A stretch of DNA of 27,625 nucleotides from a virus. Lineage: Duplodnaviria > Heunggongvirae > Uroviricota > Caudoviricetes. Positions 19,378 through 27,625 of this stretch are shown here, piece after piece; the first letter of the stretch is position 1; each line of letters begins with the position of its first letter. Made by a program: the position numbers and the translations under genes. The stretch spans positions 1 through 27,625 of the IMG/VR virus record IMGVR_UViG_2623620506_000008; one strand, given 5' to 3'. The notes under the pieces were generated by a model. It was not told the DNA's origin, ran no database searches, and was given only the letters and a program-made list of their open reading frames with translations.

Positions 19378-19402
19378 AGCGCCTACCAGGGCGCTTTTTT
19401 TT
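19378..19402 (+). terminator. Rho-independent terminator after the repressor gene
   Basis: AGCGCC-TACCAG-GGCGCT followed by TTTTTTTT. Confidence 0.6.
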
Positions 19403-20068: not shown

Positions 20069-23000
20069 ATGGAATTTTTCTATGTGGTCAAAGCCACTCA
20101 GAAATCCGGTAAGAAAGATGCAGTGGTCTGGTTCACTGCCAAAACTCAATCTCGCGCCGCGCTGATGATGGACGTTGCGCTGGAAGACGCAGAAATTGAA
20201 AGTGGCCGCGGTAAAGACTACGCCAAGCCTGTACGCACCGATTTCCCAGTGTACGACGACCTCCCGGAAGAAGGTACCGTGGATTTCACCTGGTGCGAAC
20301 GCTATGAGCTGGCCGACGACCAGCGCACCTGGAACGTGATCCCCGGTGCCGCGGATCAGGGTGAAACCACCCTCGCCCCAGTGACCACCAGTGATGAAGA
20401 ACTGCCTGCCGCGCCGGTAACCTCTACTCATACCGCAGGCACCGGCAAAACGTCCCTGCTTGAAAATCGCACCCCGGCGGTTCGCTTCGCCGTCCATCTA
20501 TTGGGTGATAAATACCTTTCGGCGATCAGCCAGGAGCAGCACATCGTTGCCAACGAACTGGCGACCGATGAGGGGAATGCTTACTTCCAGAACCTGATGC
20601 AGGCCAAAAATGACGTTGGTGATATTGGCGATCTGAGCCTGCATACCGAGTGGAAACTGGTGCAGGCCGTTAAAGACGTTTTTCCTCAGGACAAAGTGCA
20701 CGAATCCGCGTCGCTGGCCGCCTTCATGTCGGGCTGGATTAACGCCGATGATCGCAACCAACTGGTTGATGACTGGAAGAGTGGAAAGCTCCCGGCCAAG
20801 AATGAGCCTGAACATTGGTATGAAGACGACCTGCAGATCTGCAAAGGCGATGATGAGTTTACTCGTTATCCGGTCTGCAAATTGCCATTCCGCCAACAGC
20901 TTCTCGCCCAACTGACGGTGGACGAACTGCGCCATCATGTCACCCGCGATGAACATACGGAACTGCATGCGCTGGAGAGTGATACCGACAACAGCTACGT
21001 CCAGACTCTTCTGCTTGCTGCTGAAAGCTGCCCAGAGTTGAAGGAATTCGATACCAAGGCCCTGTGGAGCTATACCAACGCGGTCCGAAAGGTATTCAGC
21101 CAGGAAAAACGTCACGAGTTGGCTCTGGTACTTCGCTTCACCAGAATCTGGGTGACTACTGAGGCCAGTGACCACGACATCCTGACCAGTGAATGGGCAG
21201 CCGGCCATCGCATTGATGATGTAGGTATTCAAAAAGACCAGAAATCCGAAGGGCCACAACCTTCAGAACCCTATAAGCGCGCAGTGCCGCAGAACATGGC
21301 GAACCTGAGCATCGAGATTGCGATCGCCATGCTATATCCAGACGCGGTACCCGGGAAAATCAACCGTGCGCAGCTGATGGCTGCCAAAGAACTGGCTGAC
21401 AAAAAAGACGAGACTCACTCCAGGGCGCTCAAGGTGCTCGGCAAAACCTCTGATATTACTGACTACAACGCTGACAGTATTTTTGGCATTGCCCGTGCAC
21501 TCCCCTGGAGTGGAGATATAACCACGGTCGAACTGCGTAAGCAGGTTCGTGAATGGTTCACCGCGAACGGTATCTATGAAAATGGCGAGCGTTCAAAGGG
21601 TTATCCAGAGTGGGATGAAGATCCTCGCGCAAGCCGCCAGGTGATGGTGGAAGAGCCAGTAGCTACCAGCCAGCCGCAGGTCGCGAACCTCGGCGGCGGC
21701 ATGTTCTCCATCGATGGCCTGCTGGGTGGAAATACTAACCCGGTCATCAATATCCCCTCACATGAAGTAGAAAAACCGGAAACCGTAGCGGAGACCACCA
21801 GCGATGTGCAGATGGAAGCGACTCAGCCAGAGAAAGACAAAACTGTTGATGCGGTACCAACAGGCGAAAGCGTTGATGCAGCTGATCCGCAAACAGATAC
21901 CCTGAACCCGGCTGAGGTGCTGGCCGCCGCGGCGCCGGAGCTGGCGAACGCCACCACGCAGGAATCGACCACCGAAGCGCCAGACGCGAAAGCGAGCGCG
22001 CCGGAAGAGCAATCCTCACAACCGGTCCCGGAATACCCGGCGTACTTTGAACCTGGCCGTTATGAAGGCCTGCCGAACGACGTTTATCACGCAGCAAACG
22101 GGATCAGCTCCACTCAGGTGAAAGATGCCCGGGTCAGCCTGATGTACTTCAACGCCCGCCACGTCGCCAAAACCATCCCGCGGGCCCCTTCCAAGGTGCT
22201 GGACATGGGTAATCTTGTTCACGCCCTGGCGCTTCAGCCCGAAAACCTCGAGGCAGAGTTCAGCGTAGAGCCGGAGATCCCGGAAGGTGCTTTCACCACC
22301 ACCGCCACCCTGCGCGAGTTCATCGACTCGCACAACGCCAGCCTGCCGGCGCTGCTGAGTGCTGACGATATCAAAGCGCTGCTTGAAGAGCACAACGCCA
22401 CCCTGCCCGCGCAGCTGACGCTGGGCGCCTGCATGGAGGAAACGGCGCAGAGTTACATGTCGCTGCCGGAAGAGTTCCAGCGTATTGAAGTGATTCAGAG
22501 AAAGACCGCGGCAGCCATGAAAGCCTGCATCAAAGAGTATAACGCCACCCTGCCCGTGCCGGTTAAAACCAGCGGCAGCCGCGATGCGCTGCTTGAACAG
22601 CTGGCAATCATCAACCCTGACCTGGTGGCGCAGGAAGCCCAGAAACCGGCACCACTGAAAGTGTCCGGCAGCAAAGCGGAAATGATCCAGGCGGTTAAGT
22701 CGGTCAAGCCTGACGCTGTATTCGCCGACGAGCTGCTGGACGCCTGGCGCGAAAATCCGGGCGACAAGATTCTGGTGACGCGCCAGCAGCTGGCGACCGC
22801 CCAGGCCATCCAGGCTGCCCTGCTGGCACACCCGACCGCCGGCATGCTGCTGACGCACCCGAGCCGCGCCGTTGAGGTGAGCTATTTCGGCTTTGACGAC
22901 GAAACCGGGCTGGAAGTGCGCGTGCGCCCAGACCTGGAACTGGACCTCAACAACCTGCGTATCGGTGCCGACCTGAAAACCATCAGCATGTGGAACGTTA

Positions 23001-23326
23001 AGCAGGAGAGCCTGCGCTCCCGGCTGCACCGGGAAATCATCGACCGTGATTATCACCTGAGTGCGGCCATGTATTGCGAGACCGCGGCGCTGGACCAGTT
23101 CTTCTGGATCTTCGTCAACAAAGACGAAAACTACCACTGGATCGCCATTATTGAGGCATCCGCAGAACTGCTGGAGCTGGGCATGCTCGAGTACCGCAAA
23201 ACCATGCGCGCTATCGCTACCGGATTCGACACCGGCAACTGGCCGGCGCCTATCACCGCTGATTACACCGACGAACTGAACGACTTCGACCTGCGCCGCC
23301 TTGAAGCGCTGCGTACTCAGGCATAA
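20069..23326 (+). CDS. recE: RecE-like exonuclease VIII, PD-(D/E)xK nuclease C-terminal domain with long N-terminal region
   Basis: 1085 aa; C-terminal region has nuclease-like D...E-L-D...D-L-K motifs (RPDLELDLNNLRIGADLKTIS); sits directly upstream of an annealase gene as in Rac recE-recT; N-terminus recalls RecE (FPVYDDLPEEGTVDFTWCERY). Confidence 0.65.
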   Translation: MEFFYVVKATQKSGKKDAVVWFTAKTQSRAALMMDVALEDAEIESGRGKDYAKPVRTDFPVYDDLPEEGTVDFTWCERYELADDQRTWNVIPGAADQGETTLAPVTTSDEELPAAPVTSTHTAGTGKTSLLENRTPAVRFAVHLLGDKYLSAISQEQHIVANELATDEGNAYFQNLMQAKNDVGDIGDLSLHTEWKLVQAVKDVFPQDKVHESASLAAFMSGWINADDRNQLVDDWKSGKLPAKNEPEHWYEDDLQICKGDDEFTRYPVCKLPFRQQLLAQLTVDELRHHVTRDEHTELHALESDTDNSYVQTLLLAAESCPELKEFDTKALWSYTNAVRKVFSQEKRHELALVLRFTRIWVTTEASDHDILTSEWAAGHRIDDVGIQKDQKSEGPQPSEPYKRAVPQNMANLSIEIAIAMLYPDAVPGKINRAQLMAAKELADKKDETHSRALKVLGKTSDITDYNADSIFGIARALPWSGDITTVELRKQVREWFTANGIYENGERSKGYPEWDEDPRASRQVMVEEPVATSQPQVANLGGGMFSIDGLLGGNTNPVINIPSHEVEKPETVAETTSDVQMEATQPEKDKTVDAVPTGESVDAADPQTDTLNPAEVLAAAAPELANATTQESTTEAPDAKASAPEEQSSQPVPEYPAYFEPGRYEGLPNDVYHAANGISSTQVKDARVSLMYFNARHVAKTIPRAPSKVLDMGNLVHALALQPENLEAEFSVEPEIPEGAFTTTATLREFIDSHNASLPALLSADDIKALLEEHNATLPAQLTLGACMEETAQSYMSLPEEFQRIEVIQRKTAAAMKACIKEYNATLPVPVKTSGSRDALLEQLAIINPDLVAQEAQKPAPLKVSGSKAEMIQAVKSVKPDAVFADELLDAWRENPGDKILVTRQQLATAQAIQAALLAHPTAGMLLTHPSRAVEVSYFGFDDETGLEVRVRPDLELDLNNLRIGADLKTISMWNVKQESLRSRLHREIIDRDYHLSAAMYCETAALDQFFWIFVNKDENYHWIAIIEASAELLELGMLEYRKTMRAIATGFDTGNWPAPITADYTDELNDFDLRRLEALRTQA

Positions 23327-23331
23327 GGGGA

Positions 23332-24450
23332 ATGACCATGGAAAACATGAACATCGTAACTGCAGAGCAACAGGCTCCGAACACAATTTCTGCAACCAAC
23401 TCCATTTTCAATGTCCAGGCGCTGACCCAACTCCAGGCGGTTGCTGGCTTAATGGCACAGGCGGCCGTGACAGTTCCCGAACACCTACGGGGCAACCCGG
23501 CTGACTGCATGGCGATTATCATGCAGGCCATGCAGTGGGGCATGAATCCTTACGCCGTAGCGCAGAAAACGCACCTGGTAAACGGCGTGCTGGGTTACGA
23601 GGCGCAGCTGGTTAATGCGGTGATCTCCAGCTCAAATGCCATCGTAGGCCGCTTCCATTATGAATATGAAGGCGACTGGTCGAAGTGCGCCCGGATACGC
23701 GAGGAGGTTGTTAAAAAGCCTGCCAAGGGTGGCGGGACCTATGAGAAAAAAGAAATTGTCCGCGGCTGGACCAGTGATGATGAGCAGGGACTCTCGGTTC
23801 GTGTGGGCGCAGTTCTCCGCGGTGAAAGTGAAATTACATGGGGCGAGCCGGTTTATCTGTCCAGCGTAATTACGCGCAACTCCCCTCTCTGGGTATCGAA
23901 CCCAAAACAGCAGATCGCCTATCTGGCGCTCAAATACTGGGCGCGCCTCTACTGCCCTGCAGTGGTGCTGGGCGTGTATACCCCTGATGAAGTTGAGCAA
24001 AGAACCGAAAAAGAGATTAACCCGGCACCAGCGCGCGTAAGCCTGTCTGATATTTCCGGTGACAACGTAACAACCACTCACAGCGCGCAGGAGTCGGCAG
24101 CCAACATCGATGCTATGGCCGATGAATTCCGGGATCGCATTGAGGCAGCCCAGGACGTGGACAATGCAAAAGCGCTGCGTGCCGACATCGAAACCGCTAA
24201 GGCAACGCTTGGAACTGCCCTGTACACCGAACTGAAGAATAAGGCCGTGAAACGCTATTACCACGTGGACGCGCGTAACAATGTCGAGGCAGCAATCAAC
24301 TCCCTGCCCCAGCCTGGCGAGCCGGATGCCGCCGAACAGTTCGCAGAAGCCGAGCGCGTGCTGGCATCTTCAAAGCGTCACCTGGGCGACGAACTGCACG
24401 ATCAGTTCAGCATCACCCTGGCGGATATGAAACCGGAATACGTGGCCTAA
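23332..24450 (+). CDS. recT: Single-strand annealing protein, RecT/Redbeta family
   Basis: Follows the exonuclease; segments resemble recalled lambda Bet (PLWVSNPKQQIAYLALKYWARLY versus PWQSHPKRMLRHKAMIQCARLAF); probable start ATG at 23338. Confidence 0.6.
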   Translation: MTMENMNIVTAEQQAPNTISATNSIFNVQALTQLQAVAGLMAQAAVTVPEHLRGNPADCMAIIMQAMQWGMNPYAVAQKTHLVNGVLGYEAQLVNAVISSSNAIVGRFHYEYEGDWSKCARIREEVVKKPAKGGGTYEKKEIVRGWTSDDEQGLSVRVGAVLRGESEITWGEPVYLSSVITRNSPLWVSNPKQQIAYLALKYWARLYCPAVVLGVYTPDEVEQRTEKEINPAPARVSLSDISGDNVTTTHSAQESAANIDAMADEFRDRIEAAQDVDNAKALRADIETAKATLGTALYTELKNKAVKRYYHVDARNNVEAAINSLPQPGEPDAAEQFAEAERVLASSKRHLGDELHDQFSITLADMKPEYVA

Positions 24451-24484
24451 GGGAGGCGGGAGGGTTCGCCCTCCCGGTAACGAT

Positions 24485-25318
24485 ATGTTAAGAGAAAAAC
24501 CTGTTAAGCACCCGGCGATCCGTTACCACGGCGGTAAATTCCGCTTGGCATCCTGGATTATCCCTCAGATGCCTGAGCACGTCTGCTACGTGGAACCGTT
24601 CGGCGGCGCAGCTGGCGTATTGCTGCAAAAGCCTCGCAGCTATGCGGAAGTTTATAACGACTTGGATGGTGAGGTGGTGAACCTGTTCCGGGTGCTGCGT
24701 GACGCAGAGATGAACCAGCGCCTGCAACATGCGTGCATGCTCACGCCTTATTCTCGTGATGAATTTTGCGCAGCGCATGAAGTCACCGAAGAACCGATTG
24801 AGCGAGCAAGACGCATGGTTGTCCGCGCCAGCATGGGCTTTGGTTCAGCAGCAGGAATTGGCGGTAATTCCGGCTTCCGTAGCGACAGCAAAAGGAAATA
24901 TGCGACAGCTGCGCATCTGTGGGAGCGTTATCCGGAAAATCTGGCAGCAGTATGTCAGCGCCTTCAGGGGGTCATTATCGAAAACAAAGATGCCCTGTCA
25001 GTAATGCGAGCCCATGACGCTGAAACAACCCTGCACTACATCGACCCGCCTTATGTACCCGAAACCCGCGTGCATGGTAACCGTTATTACAGCCACGAAA
25101 TGACTTTAGAGGGGCATGAGCAATTGCTCGCAGTAGCCAGAACGATGACCGGAATGGTGATGATCAGCGGCTACGACTCGGATGTGTACAACGACATGCT
25201 GGTCGGATGGAAGAAAACGAAAAAATCTTCACGCATTAGCGCCGGTAGGGGTACGAAGGTCCGCACTGAATGTATGTGGCTTAACCCAGCATCACAACAG
25301 GCGGAGCGTGCAGCATGA
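24485..25318 (+). CDS. DNA N6-adenine methyltransferase, Dam-like (orphan)
   Basis: YHGGK near the N-terminus, EPFGGAAGV, catalytic DPPY (HYIDPPYVPE); no restriction endonuclease gene adjacent. Confidence 0.85.
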   Translation: MLREKPVKHPAIRYHGGKFRLASWIIPQMPEHVCYVEPFGGAAGVLLQKPRSYAEVYNDLDGEVVNLFRVLRDAEMNQRLQHACMLTPYSRDEFCAAHEVTEEPIERARRMVVRASMGFGSAAGIGGNSGFRSDSKRKYATAAHLWERYPENLAAVCQRLQGVIIENKDALSVMRAHDAETTLHYIDPPYVPETRVHGNRYYSHEMTLEGHEQLLAVARTMTGMVMISGYDSDVYNDMLVGWKKTKKSSRISAGRGTKVRTECMWLNPASQQAERAA

Positions 25319-25554
25319 AACTGATTAACCGCAGCACACAATCCCCACTCGCGCGCCAGGCGTGCGATATCGCGCTGGCAGCCCATGCTGAGCGCTACGG
25401 CGATTATGGCCCCAGCAAGATGAAAGAGACGTACACCGTGCGGGTAGAAGGCGTGAAGGTCTGGGTGGAGGTGGTGAACCGGAAGGCAAGCTACGTGGCC
25501 ACTGCGATGACCGGCATGCGCAGGCTCCGCTCCCTGCCCGGGCAGGTTTCCTGA
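25315..25554 (+). CDS. Hypothetical small protein
   Basis: 79-aa ORF, ATG overlaps the dam stop (ATGA), GGAG RBS. Confidence 0.4.
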   Translation: MKLINRSTQSPLARQACDIALAAHAERYGDYGPSKMKETYTVRVEGVKVWVEVVNRKASYVATAMTGMRRLRSLPGQVS

Positions 25555-25567
25555 TACCAATATTTCA

Positions 25568-25891
25568 ATGACAAATTTCCGACAGCTTTATAATGAGTTG
25601 TCGGAAGCCGGAGGTAATATGGCCAAGCTTCTTAACCTGCAGGAATGGGCTAAAGAAACCTATTCAACACCGCCCTCTCTTTCTACCCTTCGCCGCTGGG
25701 CCAGGGAGGGGCGCATCTTTCCTGCACCAGCGCTTCATGGCAAAGAATATAAGGTTCAACCGGATGCTATCTATGTGGATCCGAGCAAAAAGAACCTGCG
25801 ACCGAAACCTAAACACATGACGCTGCCCGCCGGCGGCACCCTACTGGAGAGACTGACTCATGGCGAAAAGGCCAGTACGTTACGACGCTAA
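25568..25891 (+). CDS. xis: Excisionase, lambda Xis-like
   Basis: LNLQEWAKETYSTPPSLSTLRRWAREGRIFPAPALHGKEYKV resembles recalled lambda Xis; preferred start ATG at 25619 with GGAGG RBS; overlaps the int start. Confidence 0.75.
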   Translation: MTNFRQLYNELSEAGGNMAKLLNLQEWAKETYSTPPSLSTLRRWAREGRIFPAPALHGKEYKVQPDAIYVDPSKKNLRPKPKHMTLPAGGTLLERLTHGEKASTLRR

Positions 25892-26945
25892 TCTGCCCCG
25901 TAACCTGACCTATCGTAAAAGAGACAGGCTTTATAGCTGGCGCAACCCGACAACCGGCCAGGAAATATCTCTTGGCCGGATCGACAGGAAGGATGCCATC
26001 TCTCAGGCCATAGAGGCCAACAACTACATCGAACAGAATTACCTGCCCTCAGCTCTGCTTGACCGCATAAAGGAGACCCCTACCTTTACGGTTAAGAGCT
26101 GGCTTGAACGGTACGAGGTGATCCTTGAGCGAAGAGAGTTGAAGCCAAACACCATGAAGGTCAGGCGAAATCAGATCGCAACCATTAAGGATGAATTCGG
26201 CAAGATGCCGTTATCCTCAGTTAGCACGAAGGACATATCAAACTTTCTTGAGTCCTATATTTTATGCGACAAGAAAAGCATGGCCGCCGGCCTACGGTCC
26301 GTGCTGCTGGACATTTTCAGGGAGGCTATTGTCGAAGGGCATATAGAAAGGAACCCAGCGGATCCTACGCGAACGCCGACACCAAAGGTAAAACGGGAGC
26401 GTTTGCTGCTCGAGCATTTTATAGTTATCCGCGCGGCAGCTGCTTCCCACTCGGAGTGGTTGCCGAACGCCTGCAATCTTGCTCTGGTTACAGGACAGCG
26501 CCGCGAGGACATTTCGCTTTTTCGGTTCAGTGACGTTAAGGATGGTAGGCTATTTGTTACGCAGGAGAAGACGGGACACAAACTGGCGCTGCCGCTTGAT
26601 TTGAAATTGGAGGCCGTGGATCTTGTGCTTGAAGAGGTAATCGAACGCTGCAGAGTAAATAATCCCTCAGACTTTATGCTTTTCTCCCCAGTCAGGCGTG
26701 GGGGCAGAAAGCCGGGCCCCTTAACTCCAGATGGTTTAACCCAGGCTTTTGCGGATGTGCGAGATGCAACGGCGTTAAAATTTGGCCCGAACCCACCGCC
26801 CTACCATGAGATCAGAAGCCTGGCCAGCAGACTATATGAAAAGGAACGTGGAGAGGAATTCACGCAACGTTTGCTCGGCCACAAAAATTTAACAATGACA
26901 AAAAAATACCTGGACGCACGCGGTGCAGAGTATGTTATGGTTTAG
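25860..26945 (+). CDS. int: Tyrosine integrase, lambda Int-like
   Basis: Extensive similarity to recalled lambda Int (LALVTGQRREDI, HEIRSLASRLYEKE, LLGHK, Tyr near the C-terminus). Confidence 0.9.
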   Translation: MAKRPVRYDANLPRNLTYRKRDRLYSWRNPTTGQEISLGRIDRKDAISQAIEANNYIEQNYLPSALLDRIKETPTFTVKSWLERYEVILERRELKPNTMKVRRNQIATIKDEFGKMPLSSVSTKDISNFLESYILCDKKSMAAGLRSVLLDIFREAIVEGHIERNPADPTRTPTPKVKRERLLLEHFIVIRAAAASHSEWLPNACNLALVTGQRREDISLFRFSDVKDGRLFVTQEKTGHKLALPLDLKLEAVDLVLEEVIERCRVNNPSDFMLFSPVRRGGRKPGPLTPDGLTQAFADVRDATALKFGPNPPPYHEIRSLASRLYEKERGEEFTQRLLGHKNLTMTKKYLDARGAEYVMV

Positions 26946-27213
26946 ACAGGATATGGATTATTCGAGTAAGTTTCGGGGGATTTCGTGAGAACACCGAAAA
27001 AACCCTTAAGAAACAAATAGATAAAAAGAGACCGAATACGATTCCTGTATTCGGTCCAGGGAAATGGCTCTTGGGAGAGAGCCGTGCGCTAAAAGTTGGC
27101 ATTAATGCAGGCTTAGTTGCCTTGCCCTTTAAGAATAGATGACGACGCCAGGTTTTCCAGTTTGCGTGCAAAATGGTCAATAAAAAGCGCGGTGGTCATC
27201 AGCTTAAATGTTA

Positions 27214-27283: not shown

Positions 27284-27625
27284 TTAACAGAGTTTTTCAG
27301 CTCGTTCTATAAACGGTGCCAGACTCATTTTTTCGCCGGGATTGTTAGGATCATCAATCTGAATCACCGAAATGGGTTGGGCTTTAGTCTTCCCACTGGC
27401 AACTTCCTTTTGTGCGATATCGTTTAAAGGATACTGCACGAGGGTACTTGGGTTGATGACATACAAAGCATTACCCGGTCGGCAAGTCAGCATCACCTCT
27501 TCGCGATTAAACGCCCATTTGTCTTTACCCACTTCAAAACGGCTGACGGTAATCACCTGCGGTGCAGCCAGCGCCGCTGCAGAACTGGTGAGTAACAGAA
27601 ACGCCAGAATACTTTTTTTCATCAT
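27284..27625 (-). CDS. yebY: Host periplasmic protein, YebY-like (DUF2511)
   Basis: 113-aa product with signal peptide [22 protein letters not shown]; closely matches the recalled E. coli YebY; ORF starts at the window edge. Confidence 0.6.

What the first reader, a model, noticed from the sequence alone, without database searches (positions are those of the whole stretch)
24451..24487. Stable UUCG-tetraloop hairpin between recT and dam
CGGGAGGG-TTCG-CCCTCCCG is a perfect 8-bp GC-rich stem with a UUCG loop, 9 nt upstream of the dam ATG. It contains the only Shine-Dalgarno-like GGGAGG sequences near that start. It could attenuate or gate dam translation, or stabilise the upstream mRNA.
Basis: seen in the sequence. 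Interest (0 to 1): 0.4.

Follow-up and report, generated by a model that had tools for sequence, protein, structure and literature searches.

The report
Hairpin-bridged ribosome site after recT
The hairpin between recT and dam is real and conserved in many enterobacterial prophages, and it most likely loops out 20 bases so that a ribosome-binding sequence lying directly after the recT stop codon sits 8 bases from the next gene's start codon, an arrangement so far shown only for two phage T4 genes.

Summary
CGGGAGGG-TTCG-CCCTCCCG (24457-24476) is a perfect 8-bp hairpin (-15.6 kcal/mol, z = -4.1). It starts 6 nt after the recT stop and ends 8 nt before the dam ATG.

It is not specific to dam. 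In about 500 related loci the same hairpin follows recT whatever gene comes next. Two mutually exclusive layouts occur.
- Layout A, the window's: stop, GGGAGG, hairpin, a 7-11 nt spacer without a Shine-Dalgarno (SD) sequence, ATG. It precedes at least 11 unrelated genes.
- Layout B: stop, 6-7 nt without an SD, hairpin, AGGAG, ATG.

Layout A also occurs with five completely different stem sequences. Stems keep pairing through G.U and compensatory changes. Half of the distinct tetraloops are UNCG or GNRA. The free SD and both arms are more conserved than recT codon positions 1 and 2.

Best reading (about 0.55): a split ribosome-binding site of the phage T4 gene 25/38 type, in which the folded hairpin cuts the SD-to-AUG spacing from 28 to 8 nt. 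It is carried on a recT-linked cassette that ends at a mosaic junction.

It is not an intrinsic terminator, because there is no U tract. It is not the canonical C(UUCG)G tetraloop, because the closing pair is G-C. A role as an mRNA decay barrier is not excluded. Nothing here is experimental.

The parts
23332..24450 (+). recT coding sequence (372 aa as listed). The true start may be the ATG at 23338, which lies 7 nt after the GGGGA that follows the recE stop.
   Evidence: Pfam PF03837 RecT, E = 9.8e-39. ORF list. recE-recT junction read.
24448..24450 (+). recT stop codon TAA, directly abutting the free SD.
24451..24456 (+). Free Shine-Dalgarno sequence GGGAGG (SD1), flush with the 5' side of the stem. 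It lies 28 nt from the AUG on the linear RNA and 8 nt with the hairpin looped out.
   Evidence: Duplex with the 16S 3' end: -9.2 kcal/mol. Majority-base frequency 0.966 across 98 unique segments, against 0.840 for recT third codon positions. A GGAGG-type SD is kept at this place in loci with five other stem sequences.
24457..24464 (+). 5' arm of the hairpin, CGGGAGGG. It contains a second, sequestered GGGAGG at 24458-24463. Together with SD1 it forms an imperfect 7-nt tandem repeat, GGGAGGC GGGAGGG.
   Evidence: Conservation 0.992.
24465..24468 (+). Loop TTCG, variable among relatives (GTAA, GCAA, GAAA, TCCG, TACG, CGAA and others).
   Evidence: Conservation 0.814, similar to synonymous sites.
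24469..24476 (+). 3' arm of the hairpin, CCCTCCCG, which resembles the anti-SD sequence.
   Evidence: Conservation 0.990. Substitutions are mostly C to T, giving G.U on the + strand.
24477..24484 (+). 8-nt spacer GTAACGAT without an SD, between the stem and the start codon.
   Evidence: Duplex with the anti-SD: +0.3 kcal/mol. The spacer is 8 nt in 50 of 67 unique layout-A sequences; most others are 7-11 nt, and three short calls come from an ambiguous start codon.
24485..25318 (+). dam-like D12-class N6-adenine DNA methyltransferase. The ATG at 24485-24487 is the last conserved element of the cassette, and homology with other phages largely breaks there.
   Evidence: Pfam PF02086, E = 3e-20. 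BLAST matches end at query position 226 or 238, which is window 24475 or 24487. Conservation of the 30 nt downstream is 0.566.
24521..24527 (+). CGTTACC inside dam, predicted to pair with GGTAACG (24476-24482). This helix favours the register-shifted alternative in which SD1 pairs with 24470-24475. It is a prediction only, and it cannot be conserved in loci with other downstream genes.
   Evidence: Partition-function folding.

Best explanation
The hairpin is a conserved RNA structure on the + strand mRNA, at the 3' boundary of recT in RecE/RecT-type lambdoid prophages of Enterobacteriaceae.

In the window's layout it is the looped-out insert of a split (hairpin-bridged) ribosome-binding site. 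The only usable SD (GGGAGG, 24451-24456) lies immediately after the recT stop codon and 28 nt from the dam AUG. Folding of the 20-nt hairpin brings SD and AUG to an effective spacing of about 8 nt, so that a 30S subunit can initiate on dam. That subunit could be newly bound or left over from termination at recT.

The 37-nt unit of SD, hairpin, spacer and ATG behaves as a portable expression cassette. Different accessory genes have been swapped in at or just after the ATG.

Shown: the anatomy, the conservation, the covariation, the mutual exclusivity of the two SD positions, and the recT linkage.

Inferred: that the hairpin forms in vivo, that SD1 is the SD actually used, and that bridging rather than reinitiation drives dam translation. 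The same hairpin probably also has an older role, seen in layout B, that does not involve bridging. That role is most likely protection or insulation of the mRNA.
For: 1. Geometry. The order is stop, SD1, 8-bp stem, 8 nt, AUG. The spacer has no SD (+0.3 kcal/mol) while SD1 binds at -9.2. In local context P(stem) = 0.98, SD1 is 0.72 unpaired and the AUG 0.85 unpaired.

2. Mutual exclusivity. Among 117 unique stop-to-ATG sequences, 67 have the SD only upstream of the stem, 28 only downstream and 1 both. The other 21 fall under the -6 kcal/mol cut-off: about 14 have a weaker downstream SD, 2 are layout A with a weakened or mis-parsed SD, and 3 have no evident SD (first set).

3. The layout recurs with unrelated stems, so the architecture is conserved rather than the stem sequence (energies):
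- CGGAGG + CGGCCCC/GGGGCCG (Kluyvera)
- CGGAGG + CTGGCGGCC/GGCCGCCGG
- CGGAGG + TGGCGGTC/GGCCGCCA
- TGGAGG + CTGGCGGCC/GGTCGCCAG
- TGGAGG + CTGGCGGTCG/CGGCCGCCAG
- AGGAG + GGCGGCC/GGTCGCC
Each is followed by 7-11 nt without an SD and then ATG.

4. RNA-level pairing. In the main family 95.5% of cells are paired, 2 pairs show changes on both sides (C-G to U-A, and G-C to A-U via G.U), and the inner 7 pairs have 1 unpaired cell in 294. Anchored on the loop across all stem families, pairs 3-8 are paired in 51 of 51 unique hairpins with 3-4 pair types each, except pair 8, which has two. Of the 51 loops, 25 are UNCG or GNRA.

5. Selection profile. Majority-base frequencies are SD1 0.966, arms 0.992 and 0.990, loop 0.814 and spacer 0.866. 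For recT they are 0.938 at codon positions 1+2 and 0.840 at position 3. A Klebsiella phage whose recT third positions are saturated (39% identity) has the cassette 37/37 identical.

6. Internal comparison. The recE-recT junction in the same window is TAA GGGGA ATGACC ATG, which is the same stop, SD, 7-nt spacer, ATG plan without the hairpin.

7. Precedent. In T4 genes 38 and 25 a hairpin between SD and AUG cuts the spacing from 22 to 5 nt and from 27 to 11 nt. Destabilising mutations lower initiation, and the gene 25 case sits at the 26-25 intercistronic junction (review PMC3014915).
Against: - There is no experimental evidence for this locus.
- The same hairpin occurs in layout B (Gifsy-2, mEp237 and others), where the SD lies after the stem and bridging cannot be its role. 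Bridging is therefore at most a derived use.
- In longer folding contexts a register-shifted pairing of SD1 with 24470-24475 reaches P = 0.37-0.62 and would hide SD1.
- The stem sequence is nearly invariant within the main family, so covariation there rests on two pairs. In 56 of 500 shuffles the number of pairs changed on both sides was as high as observed.
- The start is only 34 nt from the recT stop, so SD-independent termination-reinitiation could contribute.
- In the Kluyvera variant the loop holds an in-frame ATG 10 nt after the SD, which offers another reading for that one family. The related L039 lacks that ATG.
Confidence: 0.55

Rival explanations
1. The hairpin is mainly an mRNA decay barrier or processing boundary. 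It blocks 3'-to-5' exonucleases and so stabilises the recE-recT message relative to the distal dam, xis and int part of the leftward operon. Under this reading dam is translated by termination-reinitiation of ribosomes leaving recT, and SD1 only tethers them.
For: - A hairpin sits 4-9 nt (mostly 6-7) after the recT stop in both layouts and in distant RecT clades with unrelated stems (Rahnella, Erwinia, a Pseudomonas lundensis contig, Limnobaculum), regardless of where the SD is.
- The stems are GC-rich with stable tetraloops and no U tract, which is typical of protective stem-loops (established knowledge of REP and other 3' stabilisers).
- It is the simplest role for layout B.
Against: - It does not explain why an SD is kept flush against the stem exactly when no SD follows the stem, why this holds across five other stem sequences, or why the distance from stem to ATG is held at 7-11 nt.
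- No 3'-end data are available.
- This role is compatible with the best explanation rather than exclusive of it.
Confidence: 0.2
2. The hairpin attenuates or gates translation. It sequesters an SD and, through two alternative registers (either GGGAGG copy pairing with CCCUCC), sets or switches how much of the downstream gene is made. The switch might respond to ribosome traffic on recT.
For: - One GGGAGG is buried in the stem.
- The tandem GGGAGGC/GGGAGGG allows a register shift, predicted at P = 0.37-0.62 in longer contexts.
- The hairpin begins 6 nt after the stop codon, about where a terminating ribosome's entry channel would meet it (inference from the known ribosome footprint).
Against: - The shifted register is about 5.6 kcal/mol weaker in isolation (-10.0 against -15.6). 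It depends on a helix with dam coding sequence that other downstream genes cannot provide.
- It is impossible in the layout-A loci with other stems.
- The buried SD is 21 nt from the AUG and would be useless even if freed.
Confidence: 0.12
3. The element acts at the DNA level. It would be a short conserved palindrome that serves as a recombination junction, or a protein-binding site, for module exchange between phages, with no RNA function.
For: - Homology between phages breaks at the end of the hairpin or at the ATG.
- The cassette is 37/37 identical between phages whose flanks are diverged or unrelated.
- There is an analogy with the PeSL cassettes of T4-type phages (PMC2839356).
Against: - G.U-compatible substitutions occur on the + strand only, and there are compensatory pairs.
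- RNA-specific UNCG and GNRA loops are enriched, 25 of 51 against about 5% expected.
- Whole stems are replaced while the architecture is kept.
- The element is single-copy per contig, with no second copy to recombine with.
- A junction role may be a consequence of conservation rather than the function.
Confidence: 0.06
4. The hairpin is an intrinsic transcription terminator or pause site between recT and dam.
For: It is a GC-rich 8-bp stem with a tetraloop.
Against: - There is no T run after the stem on either strand: GTAACGATATG on the + strand and CCTCCCTTAGG on the - strand.
- The terminator scan does not call it.
- The downstream genes have no promoter-like site of their own on the + strand in 23000-26000.
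Confidence: 0.03

Closest known systems
Split ('accommodated') translation initiation regions of phage T4 genes 25 and 38 (Nivinskas et al. 1999; Malys and Nivinskas 2009; reviewed in PMC3014915)
   Same: - The SD is too far from the AUG on the linear RNA: 28 nt here, 27 and 22 nt in T4.
- A stable hairpin occupies the interval and cuts the effective spacing to a working value: 8 nt here, 11 and 5 nt in T4.
- There is no other SD near the start.
- The site lies at an intercistronic junction, as with gene 26-25.
- Close relatives keep the hairpin while more distant ones use an ordinary site.
   Different: - Different phage group (temperate lambdoid prophages) and no sequence relationship.
- The SD abuts the upstream stop codon and is flush with the stem.
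- The 5' arm is itself a second copy of the SD.
- The same hairpin also exists in a non-split layout.
- The cassette serves many unrelated downstream genes.
- Function here is inferred and has not been tested.
PeSL (promoter-early stem-loop) mobile regulatory cassettes of T4-type phages (Arbiol et al. 2010, PMC2839356)
   Same: A short conserved intergenic cassette containing a stem-loop marks the boundary of variable accessory genes, and is plausibly the site where modules are exchanged.
   Different: - PeSLs carry a sigma-70 promoter and a working terminator, and occur many times per genome.
- This cassette has no promoter-like site and no U tract.
- It is single-copy and always follows recT.
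Protective intercistronic or 3' stem-loops (REP-type stabilisers of upstream mRNA)
   Same: A GC-rich stable hairpin without a U tract, placed just after a stop codon inside an operon.
   Different: - It is not a dispersed repeat: once in the window and once per viral contig.
- A stabiliser has no need for the positional coupling to an SD and a start codon that is seen here.
SD-sequestering inhibitory hairpins (for example the T4 gene e early-transcript structure, PMC3014915)
   Same: An SD-like GGGAGG is paired with an anti-SD-like CCCUCC strand.
   Different: The sequestered copy is 21 nt from the AUG, so it is not the working SD. A second, free copy sits outside the stem.

Membership tests
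Split / hairpin-bridged RBS (T4 gene 25/38 type) | The SD lies well beyond the functional spacing from the start codon on the linear mRNA. | tested here: met
   GGGAGG at 24451-24456 and AUG at 24485, with 28 nt between them.
Split / hairpin-bridged RBS (T4 gene 25/38 type) | The intervening sequence forms a stable hairpin that reduces the spacing to a functional 5-11 nt. | tested here: met
   20-nt hairpin at -15.6 kcal/mol, z = -4.06. Residual spacing is 0 + 8 nt. Across relatives it is mostly 7-11 nt.
Split / hairpin-bridged RBS (T4 gene 25/38 type) | There is no alternative SD at normal spacing. | tested here: met
   The spacer-to-anti-SD duplex is +0.3 kcal/mol. Upstream and downstream SDs are mutually exclusive in 95 of 96 unique sequences that have a strong SD on either side.
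Split / hairpin-bridged RBS (T4 gene 25/38 type) | The structure is phylogenetically conserved. | tested here: met
   95.5% of cells paired and 2 compensatory pairs. Five other stem sequences have the same layout. Pairs 3-8 are paired in 51 of 51 unique hairpins.
Split / hairpin-bridged RBS (T4 gene 25/38 type) | Destabilising the hairpin lowers translation initiation, and compensatory changes restore it. | not testable with these tools
   This needs reporter fusions, toeprinting and structure probing.
Intrinsic (Rho-independent) terminator | A GC-rich hairpin immediately followed by a U tract. | tested here: not met
   The stem is followed by GTAACGAT on the + strand and CCTCCCTT on the - strand. 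The terminator scan does not list it.
Extra-stable C(UUCG)G tetraloop | A UUCG loop closed by a C-G pair. | tested here: not met
   The closing pair is G24464-C24469. The Turner model gives no energy bonus. The loop is not conserved: frequency 0.814, with many alternatives.
REP-like dispersed stabiliser hairpins | Many copies in intergenic regions of one genome. | tested here: not met
   One copy in the window. One per contig in 120 viral contigs, 119 of them directly after recT.
PeSL-type mobile regulatory cassette | A strong sigma-70 promoter plus a terminator stem-loop, repeated in hyperplastic regions. | tested here: not met
   No + strand promoter-like site near 24400-24500 and no U tract. 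The element is single-copy.
Recoding stimulator (frameshift or readthrough hairpin) | A slippery or leaky site followed at 5-9 nt by a structure, with a conserved extended ORF. | tested here: not met
   The spacing fits, with the hairpin 6 nt after the stop. However, the last codons GAA TAC GTG GCC TAA hold no slippery heptamer, readthrough meets TAA after 9 codons, and the frame of the downstream gene varies with spacer length.
Known Rfam RNA family | A match to a curated covariance model. | tested here: not met
   No credible match in 24000-25000 at E up to 10. Over the whole window only SraC/RyeA and SdsR/RyeB reach the gathering score.

The most novel reading that the evidence does not exclude
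The 37-nt unit is a natural plug-in expression socket. It would be a recT-linked cassette whose hairpin-bridged SD supplies translation signals to whatever ORF lands at its ATG. Its near-invariant sequence would double as the crossover point through which lambdoid prophages swap accessory genes such as Dam, a dNTP pyrophosphohydrolase and regulators. The tandem GGGAGG copies might in addition form a two-register switch that ties expression of the accessory gene to ribosome traffic on recT.
Probability: 0.2. Interest if true: 0.65.

Novelty: new member of a known kind. Interest (0 to 1): 0.45.

Why it matters
Hairpin-bridged ribosome-binding sites have been shown experimentally only for T4 genes 25 and 38. 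A second, independent case would show that the arrangement is a recurrent solution rather than a T4 oddity. This candidate is widespread in enterobacterial prophages (Escherichia, Klebsiella, Enterobacter, Citrobacter, Kluyvera and others; Salmonella Gifsy-2 carries layout B).

It also comes with natural controls: the same hairpin with the SD before or after it, and the same layout with six different stems.

In practice, gene callers and RBS-strength predictors that look only 5-15 nt upstream would score dam and at least 10 other accessory genes as lacking an SD.

It also gives a concrete example of how a conserved intercistronic signal coincides with a mosaic junction in temperate phages.

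Tried and rejected
- Intrinsic terminator: rejected. There is no T tract on either strand and the scan does not call it.
- Known RNA family: none found.
- Special UUCG stability: rejected. The closing pair is G-C, there is no energy bonus and the loop is not conserved.
- Dispersed repeat or REP-like element: rejected. The element is single-copy and linked to recT.
- Recoding signal at the recT stop: rejected. There is no slippery site and no conserved extension.
- dam-specific regulator: rejected. The identical cassette precedes at least 11 unrelated gene families.
- MAFFT alignment of all stem families together (A1) shifted the non-homologous stems and could not be used for pair counting. I used the main-family alignment A2 plus a loop-anchored count written in Python.
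- Literature searches for 'split Shine-Dalgarno', for recT/Gifsy stem-loops and for lambdoid boundary stem-loops found nothing on this element. A preprint on prophage Pas sRNAs turned out to be unrelated.
- One Python clustering run timed out and was repeated.
- The antisense promoter-like site at 24507-24480 scores 9 of 12 and is within chance expectation, so I did not pursue it.
Full report
**1. The observation**

Window 24448-24487 reads TAA GGGAGG CGGGAGGG TTCG CCCTCCCG GTAACGAT ATG. The recT ORF (23332-24450; Pfam RecT, E = 9.8e-39) ends at the TAA. The next ORF (24485-25318) is a D12-class N6-adenine methyltransferase (PF02086, E = 3e-20). All neighbouring genes lie on the + strand in the order recE, recT, dam, DUF4060, xis, int.

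The 20-nt hairpin folds at -15.6 kcal/mol. Dinucleotide shuffles average -7.0, z = -4.06, and 0 of 200 shuffles do as well. The motif GGGAGGG N3-8 CCCTCCC occurs once in the window against 0.01 expected.

The observation therefore holds, with two refinements.
- One GGGAGG (24458-24463) is inside the 5' arm. A second copy (24451-24456) is free, flush with the stem and directly after the stop codon. The 8-nt spacer before the ATG has no affinity for the anti-SD sequence (+0.3 kcal/mol against -9.2 for the free copy).
- The loop is closed by G-C rather than C-G. It is not the canonical extra-stable C(UUCG)G, and the Turner model gives it no bonus.

**2. What it is not**

- No T run follows the stem on either strand, and the terminator scan does not list it.
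- No Rfam family matches.
- It is not a dispersed repeat. A pattern scan of IMG/VR for GGAGGCGGGAGGGNNNNCCCTCCCG gave 120 hits, one per contig. Of these, 119 lie directly after a RecT C-terminus.

**3. Comparative anatomy**

BLAST of the junction showed that similarity to other phages and E. coli prophages runs through the end of recT and stops either at the last base of the hairpin or at the G of the ATG, whatever follows.

I collected loci with RecT relatives from GTDB genomes and IMG/VR. In 376 loci I parsed the stretch from the recT stop to the next start codon, which gave 117 unique sequences. Two layouts appear.
- **Layout A, the window's.** Stop, 0-3 nt, G/T/C-GGAGG, hairpin, a spacer without an SD (8 nt in 50 of 67 unique sequences, most others 7-11 nt), ATG.
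- **Layout B, for example phage mEp237 and Gifsy-2.** Stop, 6-7 nt without an SD, the same GGGAGGG/CCCTCCC hairpin, 2-4 nt, AGGAG-type SD, 5-7 nt, ATG.

With a -6 kcal/mol anti-SD threshold the counts are:

| SD position | Unique sequences |
|---|---|
| Upstream of the stem only | 67 |
| Downstream of the stem only | 28 |
| Both | 1 |
| Neither | 21 |

Of the 21 'neither' cases, about 14 have a weaker downstream AAGGA or GAGG. Two are layout A with a weakened or mis-parsed SD. Three have no evident SD.

Layout A also occurs with entirely different stems:
- Kluyvera: CGGAGG-T-CGGCCCC-GTAT-GGGGCCG, then 9 nt and ATG.
- CGGAGG-CTGGCGGCC-CTCCC-GGCCGCCGG.
- CGGAGG-C-TGGCGGTC-TTCACC-GGCCGCCA, then 8 nt and ATG.
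- TGGAGG-CTGGCGGCC-CTCC-GGTCGCCAG.
- TGGAGG-CTGGCGGTCG-GCAC-CGGCCGCCAG, then 8 nt and ATG.
- AGGAG-ACT-GGCGGCC-GGTAAC-GGTCGCC.

All of these fold at -15 to -19 kcal/mol. Layout B likewise occurs with other stems in loci from Rahnella, Erwinia and Pseudomonas lundensis. What is conserved is therefore a hairpin just after recT plus an SD on one side of it or the other, not a particular sequence.

**4. RNA-level evidence**

- In the main stem family (42 distinct 20-mers) 95.5% of cells pair. Two pairs show changes on both sides: C-G to U-A at the base, and G-C to A-U at pair 7 with G.U intermediates. The inner seven pairs have one unpaired cell in 294. The one-sided changes are G.U on the + strand, which would be A.C mismatches on the - strand.
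- Covariation within this family is modest, because the arms hardly vary. The number of pairs changed on both sides was reached in 56 of 500 shuffles, and the number of cells changed on both sides in 2 of 500.
- Anchoring 51 unique tetraloop hairpins of all families on the loop, pairs 3-8 are paired in 51 of 51, with three or four pair types each except pair 8, which has two. Of the 51 loops, 25 are UNCG or GNRA, against about 5% expected.
- These are signatures of an RNA structure on the transcribed strand.

**5. Selection profile**

Across 98 unique 130-nt segments, chosen without requiring a hairpin, the majority-base frequencies are as follows.

| Region | Frequency |
|---|---|
| Free SD (SD1) | 0.966 |
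| 5' arm | 0.992 |
| Loop | 0.814 |
| 3' arm | 0.990 |
| Spacer | 0.866 |
| ATG | 1.000 |
| First 30 nt of the downstream gene | 0.566 |
| recT codon positions 1+2 | 0.938 |
| recT codon position 3 | 0.840 |

The SD and the arms are thus more constrained than amino-acid-determining positions. The loop and spacer drift like synonymous sites, and homology largely collapses after the ATG. Some downstream families still share their first 3 to 6 codons.

Against Klebsiella phage 5 LV-2017, the last 66 recT codons are 69% identical, and only 39% at third positions. The 37-nt cassette is nevertheless 37/37 identical, and the next gene is unrelated.

The downstream proteins fall into 20 BLAST families.
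- Layout A precedes at least 11 of them: Dam, a dATP/dGTP pyrophosphohydrolase (PF04447), a wHTH/PerC-like protein, a NinX-like protein, DUF977, DUF4060 and several families without a Pfam match.
- Layout B precedes DUF4060 in 197 of 205 loci.

**6. Mechanism**

The best-supported reading is a split, hairpin-bridged ribosome-binding site.
- On the linear RNA the only SD is 28 nt from the AUG. With the hairpin folded it is 8 nt away.
- In local context the stem forms with P = 0.98, SD1 is 0.72 unpaired and the AUG 0.85 unpaired.
- The recE-recT junction in the same window, TAA GGGGA ATGACC ATG, has the same plan of stop, SD, 7-nt spacer and ATG without the insert.
- The precedent is experimental. 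In T4 genes 38 and 25 a hairpin between SD and AUG reduces the spacing from 22 to 5 nt and from 27 to 11 nt. Destabilising mutations lower initiation, and DMS probing and lacZ fusions confirmed the 'split' arrangement at the 26-25 intercistronic junction (PMC3014915).
- Shown here: the anatomy and its evolutionary conservation.
- Inferred here: that SD1 is used, that the stem forms in vivo, and that bridging rather than reinitiation drives translation.

**7. Caveats and rivals**

- The same hairpin in layout B cannot be a bridge, so an older role must exist. Protection of the upstream recET message from 3'-to-5' decay, or insulation of the downstream site, is the simplest candidate. It cannot be tested here.
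- In longer folding contexts SD1 can pair with 24470-24475 in a shifted register (P = 0.37-0.62). A helix between 24476-24482 and 24521-27 inside dam favours this. In isolation the shifted register is about 5.6 kcal/mol weaker, and it is impossible with the other stems. It keeps a 'gating' reading alive for this particular locus.
- Termination-reinitiation from recT, whose stop is 34 nt upstream, could contribute.
- A purely DNA-level role as a recombination junction is disfavoured by the strand-specific G.U changes and the RNA-type loops. The cassette's conservation may still make it a preferred crossover point, as proposed for PeSL cassettes in T4-type phages (PMC2839356).

**8. Novelty and verdict**

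Searches of the held literature found no description of this element. I file it as a new member of a known kind, the split ribosome-binding site. Three features go beyond the T4 cases:
- the SD abuts the upstream stop codon;
- the same hairpin is used in two alternative layouts;
- the cassette is shared by many unrelated accessory genes at a mosaic junction.

Interest is moderate. The element is not surprising in principle, but it offers a well-controlled natural test system, and it is a warning for RBS prediction in prophages.

**Context**

The prophage sits next to yebY and the SraC/RyeA-SdsR/RyeB locus of an Escherichia chromosome.

Noticed in passing
window 27019-27163 (both strands) and 27284-27625 (-): The SraC/RyeA and SdsR/RyeB sRNA genes (178 and 116 bits) lie about 75 nt after the integrase stop, followed by yebY. 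This flank matches all 5,426 complete E. coli genomes at 95% identity or more, so the window is the right end of a prophage integrated at the ryeA/ryeB-yebY locus of an Escherichia chromosome.
   Followed up: partly
window 25576-25621: A 12-13 bp hairpin (TTTCCGACAGC...GTTGTCGGAAG, -18.2 kcal/mol) is followed 2 nt later by GGAGG (25610-25614) and by an ATG at 25619. That ATG is codon 18 of the listed xis ORF (25568-25891). The Pfam excisionase match starts at residue 22, so the real xis start is probably 25619, in a layout-B-like arrangement of hairpin then SD.
   Followed up: partly
window 23321-23340: The recE-recT junction reads GCA TAA GGGGA ATG ACC ATG, with the SD directly after the recE stop. 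The ATG at 23338, 7 nt after the SD, is a more plausible recT start than 23332. Several relatives align only from residue 3.
   Followed up: partly
window 25315-25318: The dam stop and the DUF4060 start overlap as ATGA. The variable slot between recT and DUF4060 is therefore bounded on the left by the cassette ATG and on the right by a coupled overlap.
   Followed up: no
L004 (Klebsiella phage 5 LV-2017) 1699-1738 against window 24448-24487: The 37-nt cassette is identical, including the 'neutral' loop and spacer. Yet recT third codon positions are saturated (39% identity) and the downstream genes are unrelated. Selection on the SD and stem alone does not explain identity of the loop and spacer, so recent exchange or gene conversion limited to the cassette is possible.
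   Followed up: partly
L003, L102, L136 (E. coli prophages), hairpin loop: The loop is CGAA, the exact reverse complement of the window's TTCG, with identical arms. The whole 20-mer is therefore the reverse complement of the window's hairpin. This could be a loop inversion by template switching at the palindrome, or independent substitutions.
   Followed up: no
L327 (IMG/VR), recT stop to the next ATG: This is a hybrid junction, TAA GGGAGG CGGGAGGG CGGC CCCTCCCG TCACAGGGGGTTAT ATG. It has the upstream free SD and also a G-rich SD after the stem, before DUF4060. It looks like a recombinant between layouts A and B.
   Followed up: no
L505 (IMG/VR), - strand around 1805: This is the only one of 120 pattern hits that does not follow recT. 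The same GGAGG + GGGAGGG/CCCTCCC hairpin follows a different ORF end and is followed by a T-rich stretch (CCCTATTTTCGTCATTTT).
   Followed up: no
window 19378-19402 (+): AGCGCC-TACC-AGGGCGCT followed by TTTTTTT is a canonical intrinsic-terminator shape on the + strand, upstream of recE. It shows what a real terminator looks like in this window, in contrast to the recT hairpin.
   Followed up: no
L022, L035, L061 (Kluyvera), hairpin loop: The loop GTAT plus the first G of the 3' arm creates an ATG that is in frame with the downstream ORF and 10 nt after the SD. The related L039 has loop GGCT and lacks it. This could be an alternative start buried in the hairpin, or a coincidence.
   Followed up: no
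layout-A loci, first codons of the downstream genes: Unrelated downstream families share their first few codons: ATGAGCAAAT... for both MSKSLN and MSKFTK, and ATGACGAAAATTAC.GAA for two different MTKITE proteins. The mosaic breakpoint is therefore sometimes 3 to 6 codons inside the ORF, and the A-rich early codons may belong to the conserved initiation region.
   Followed up: no
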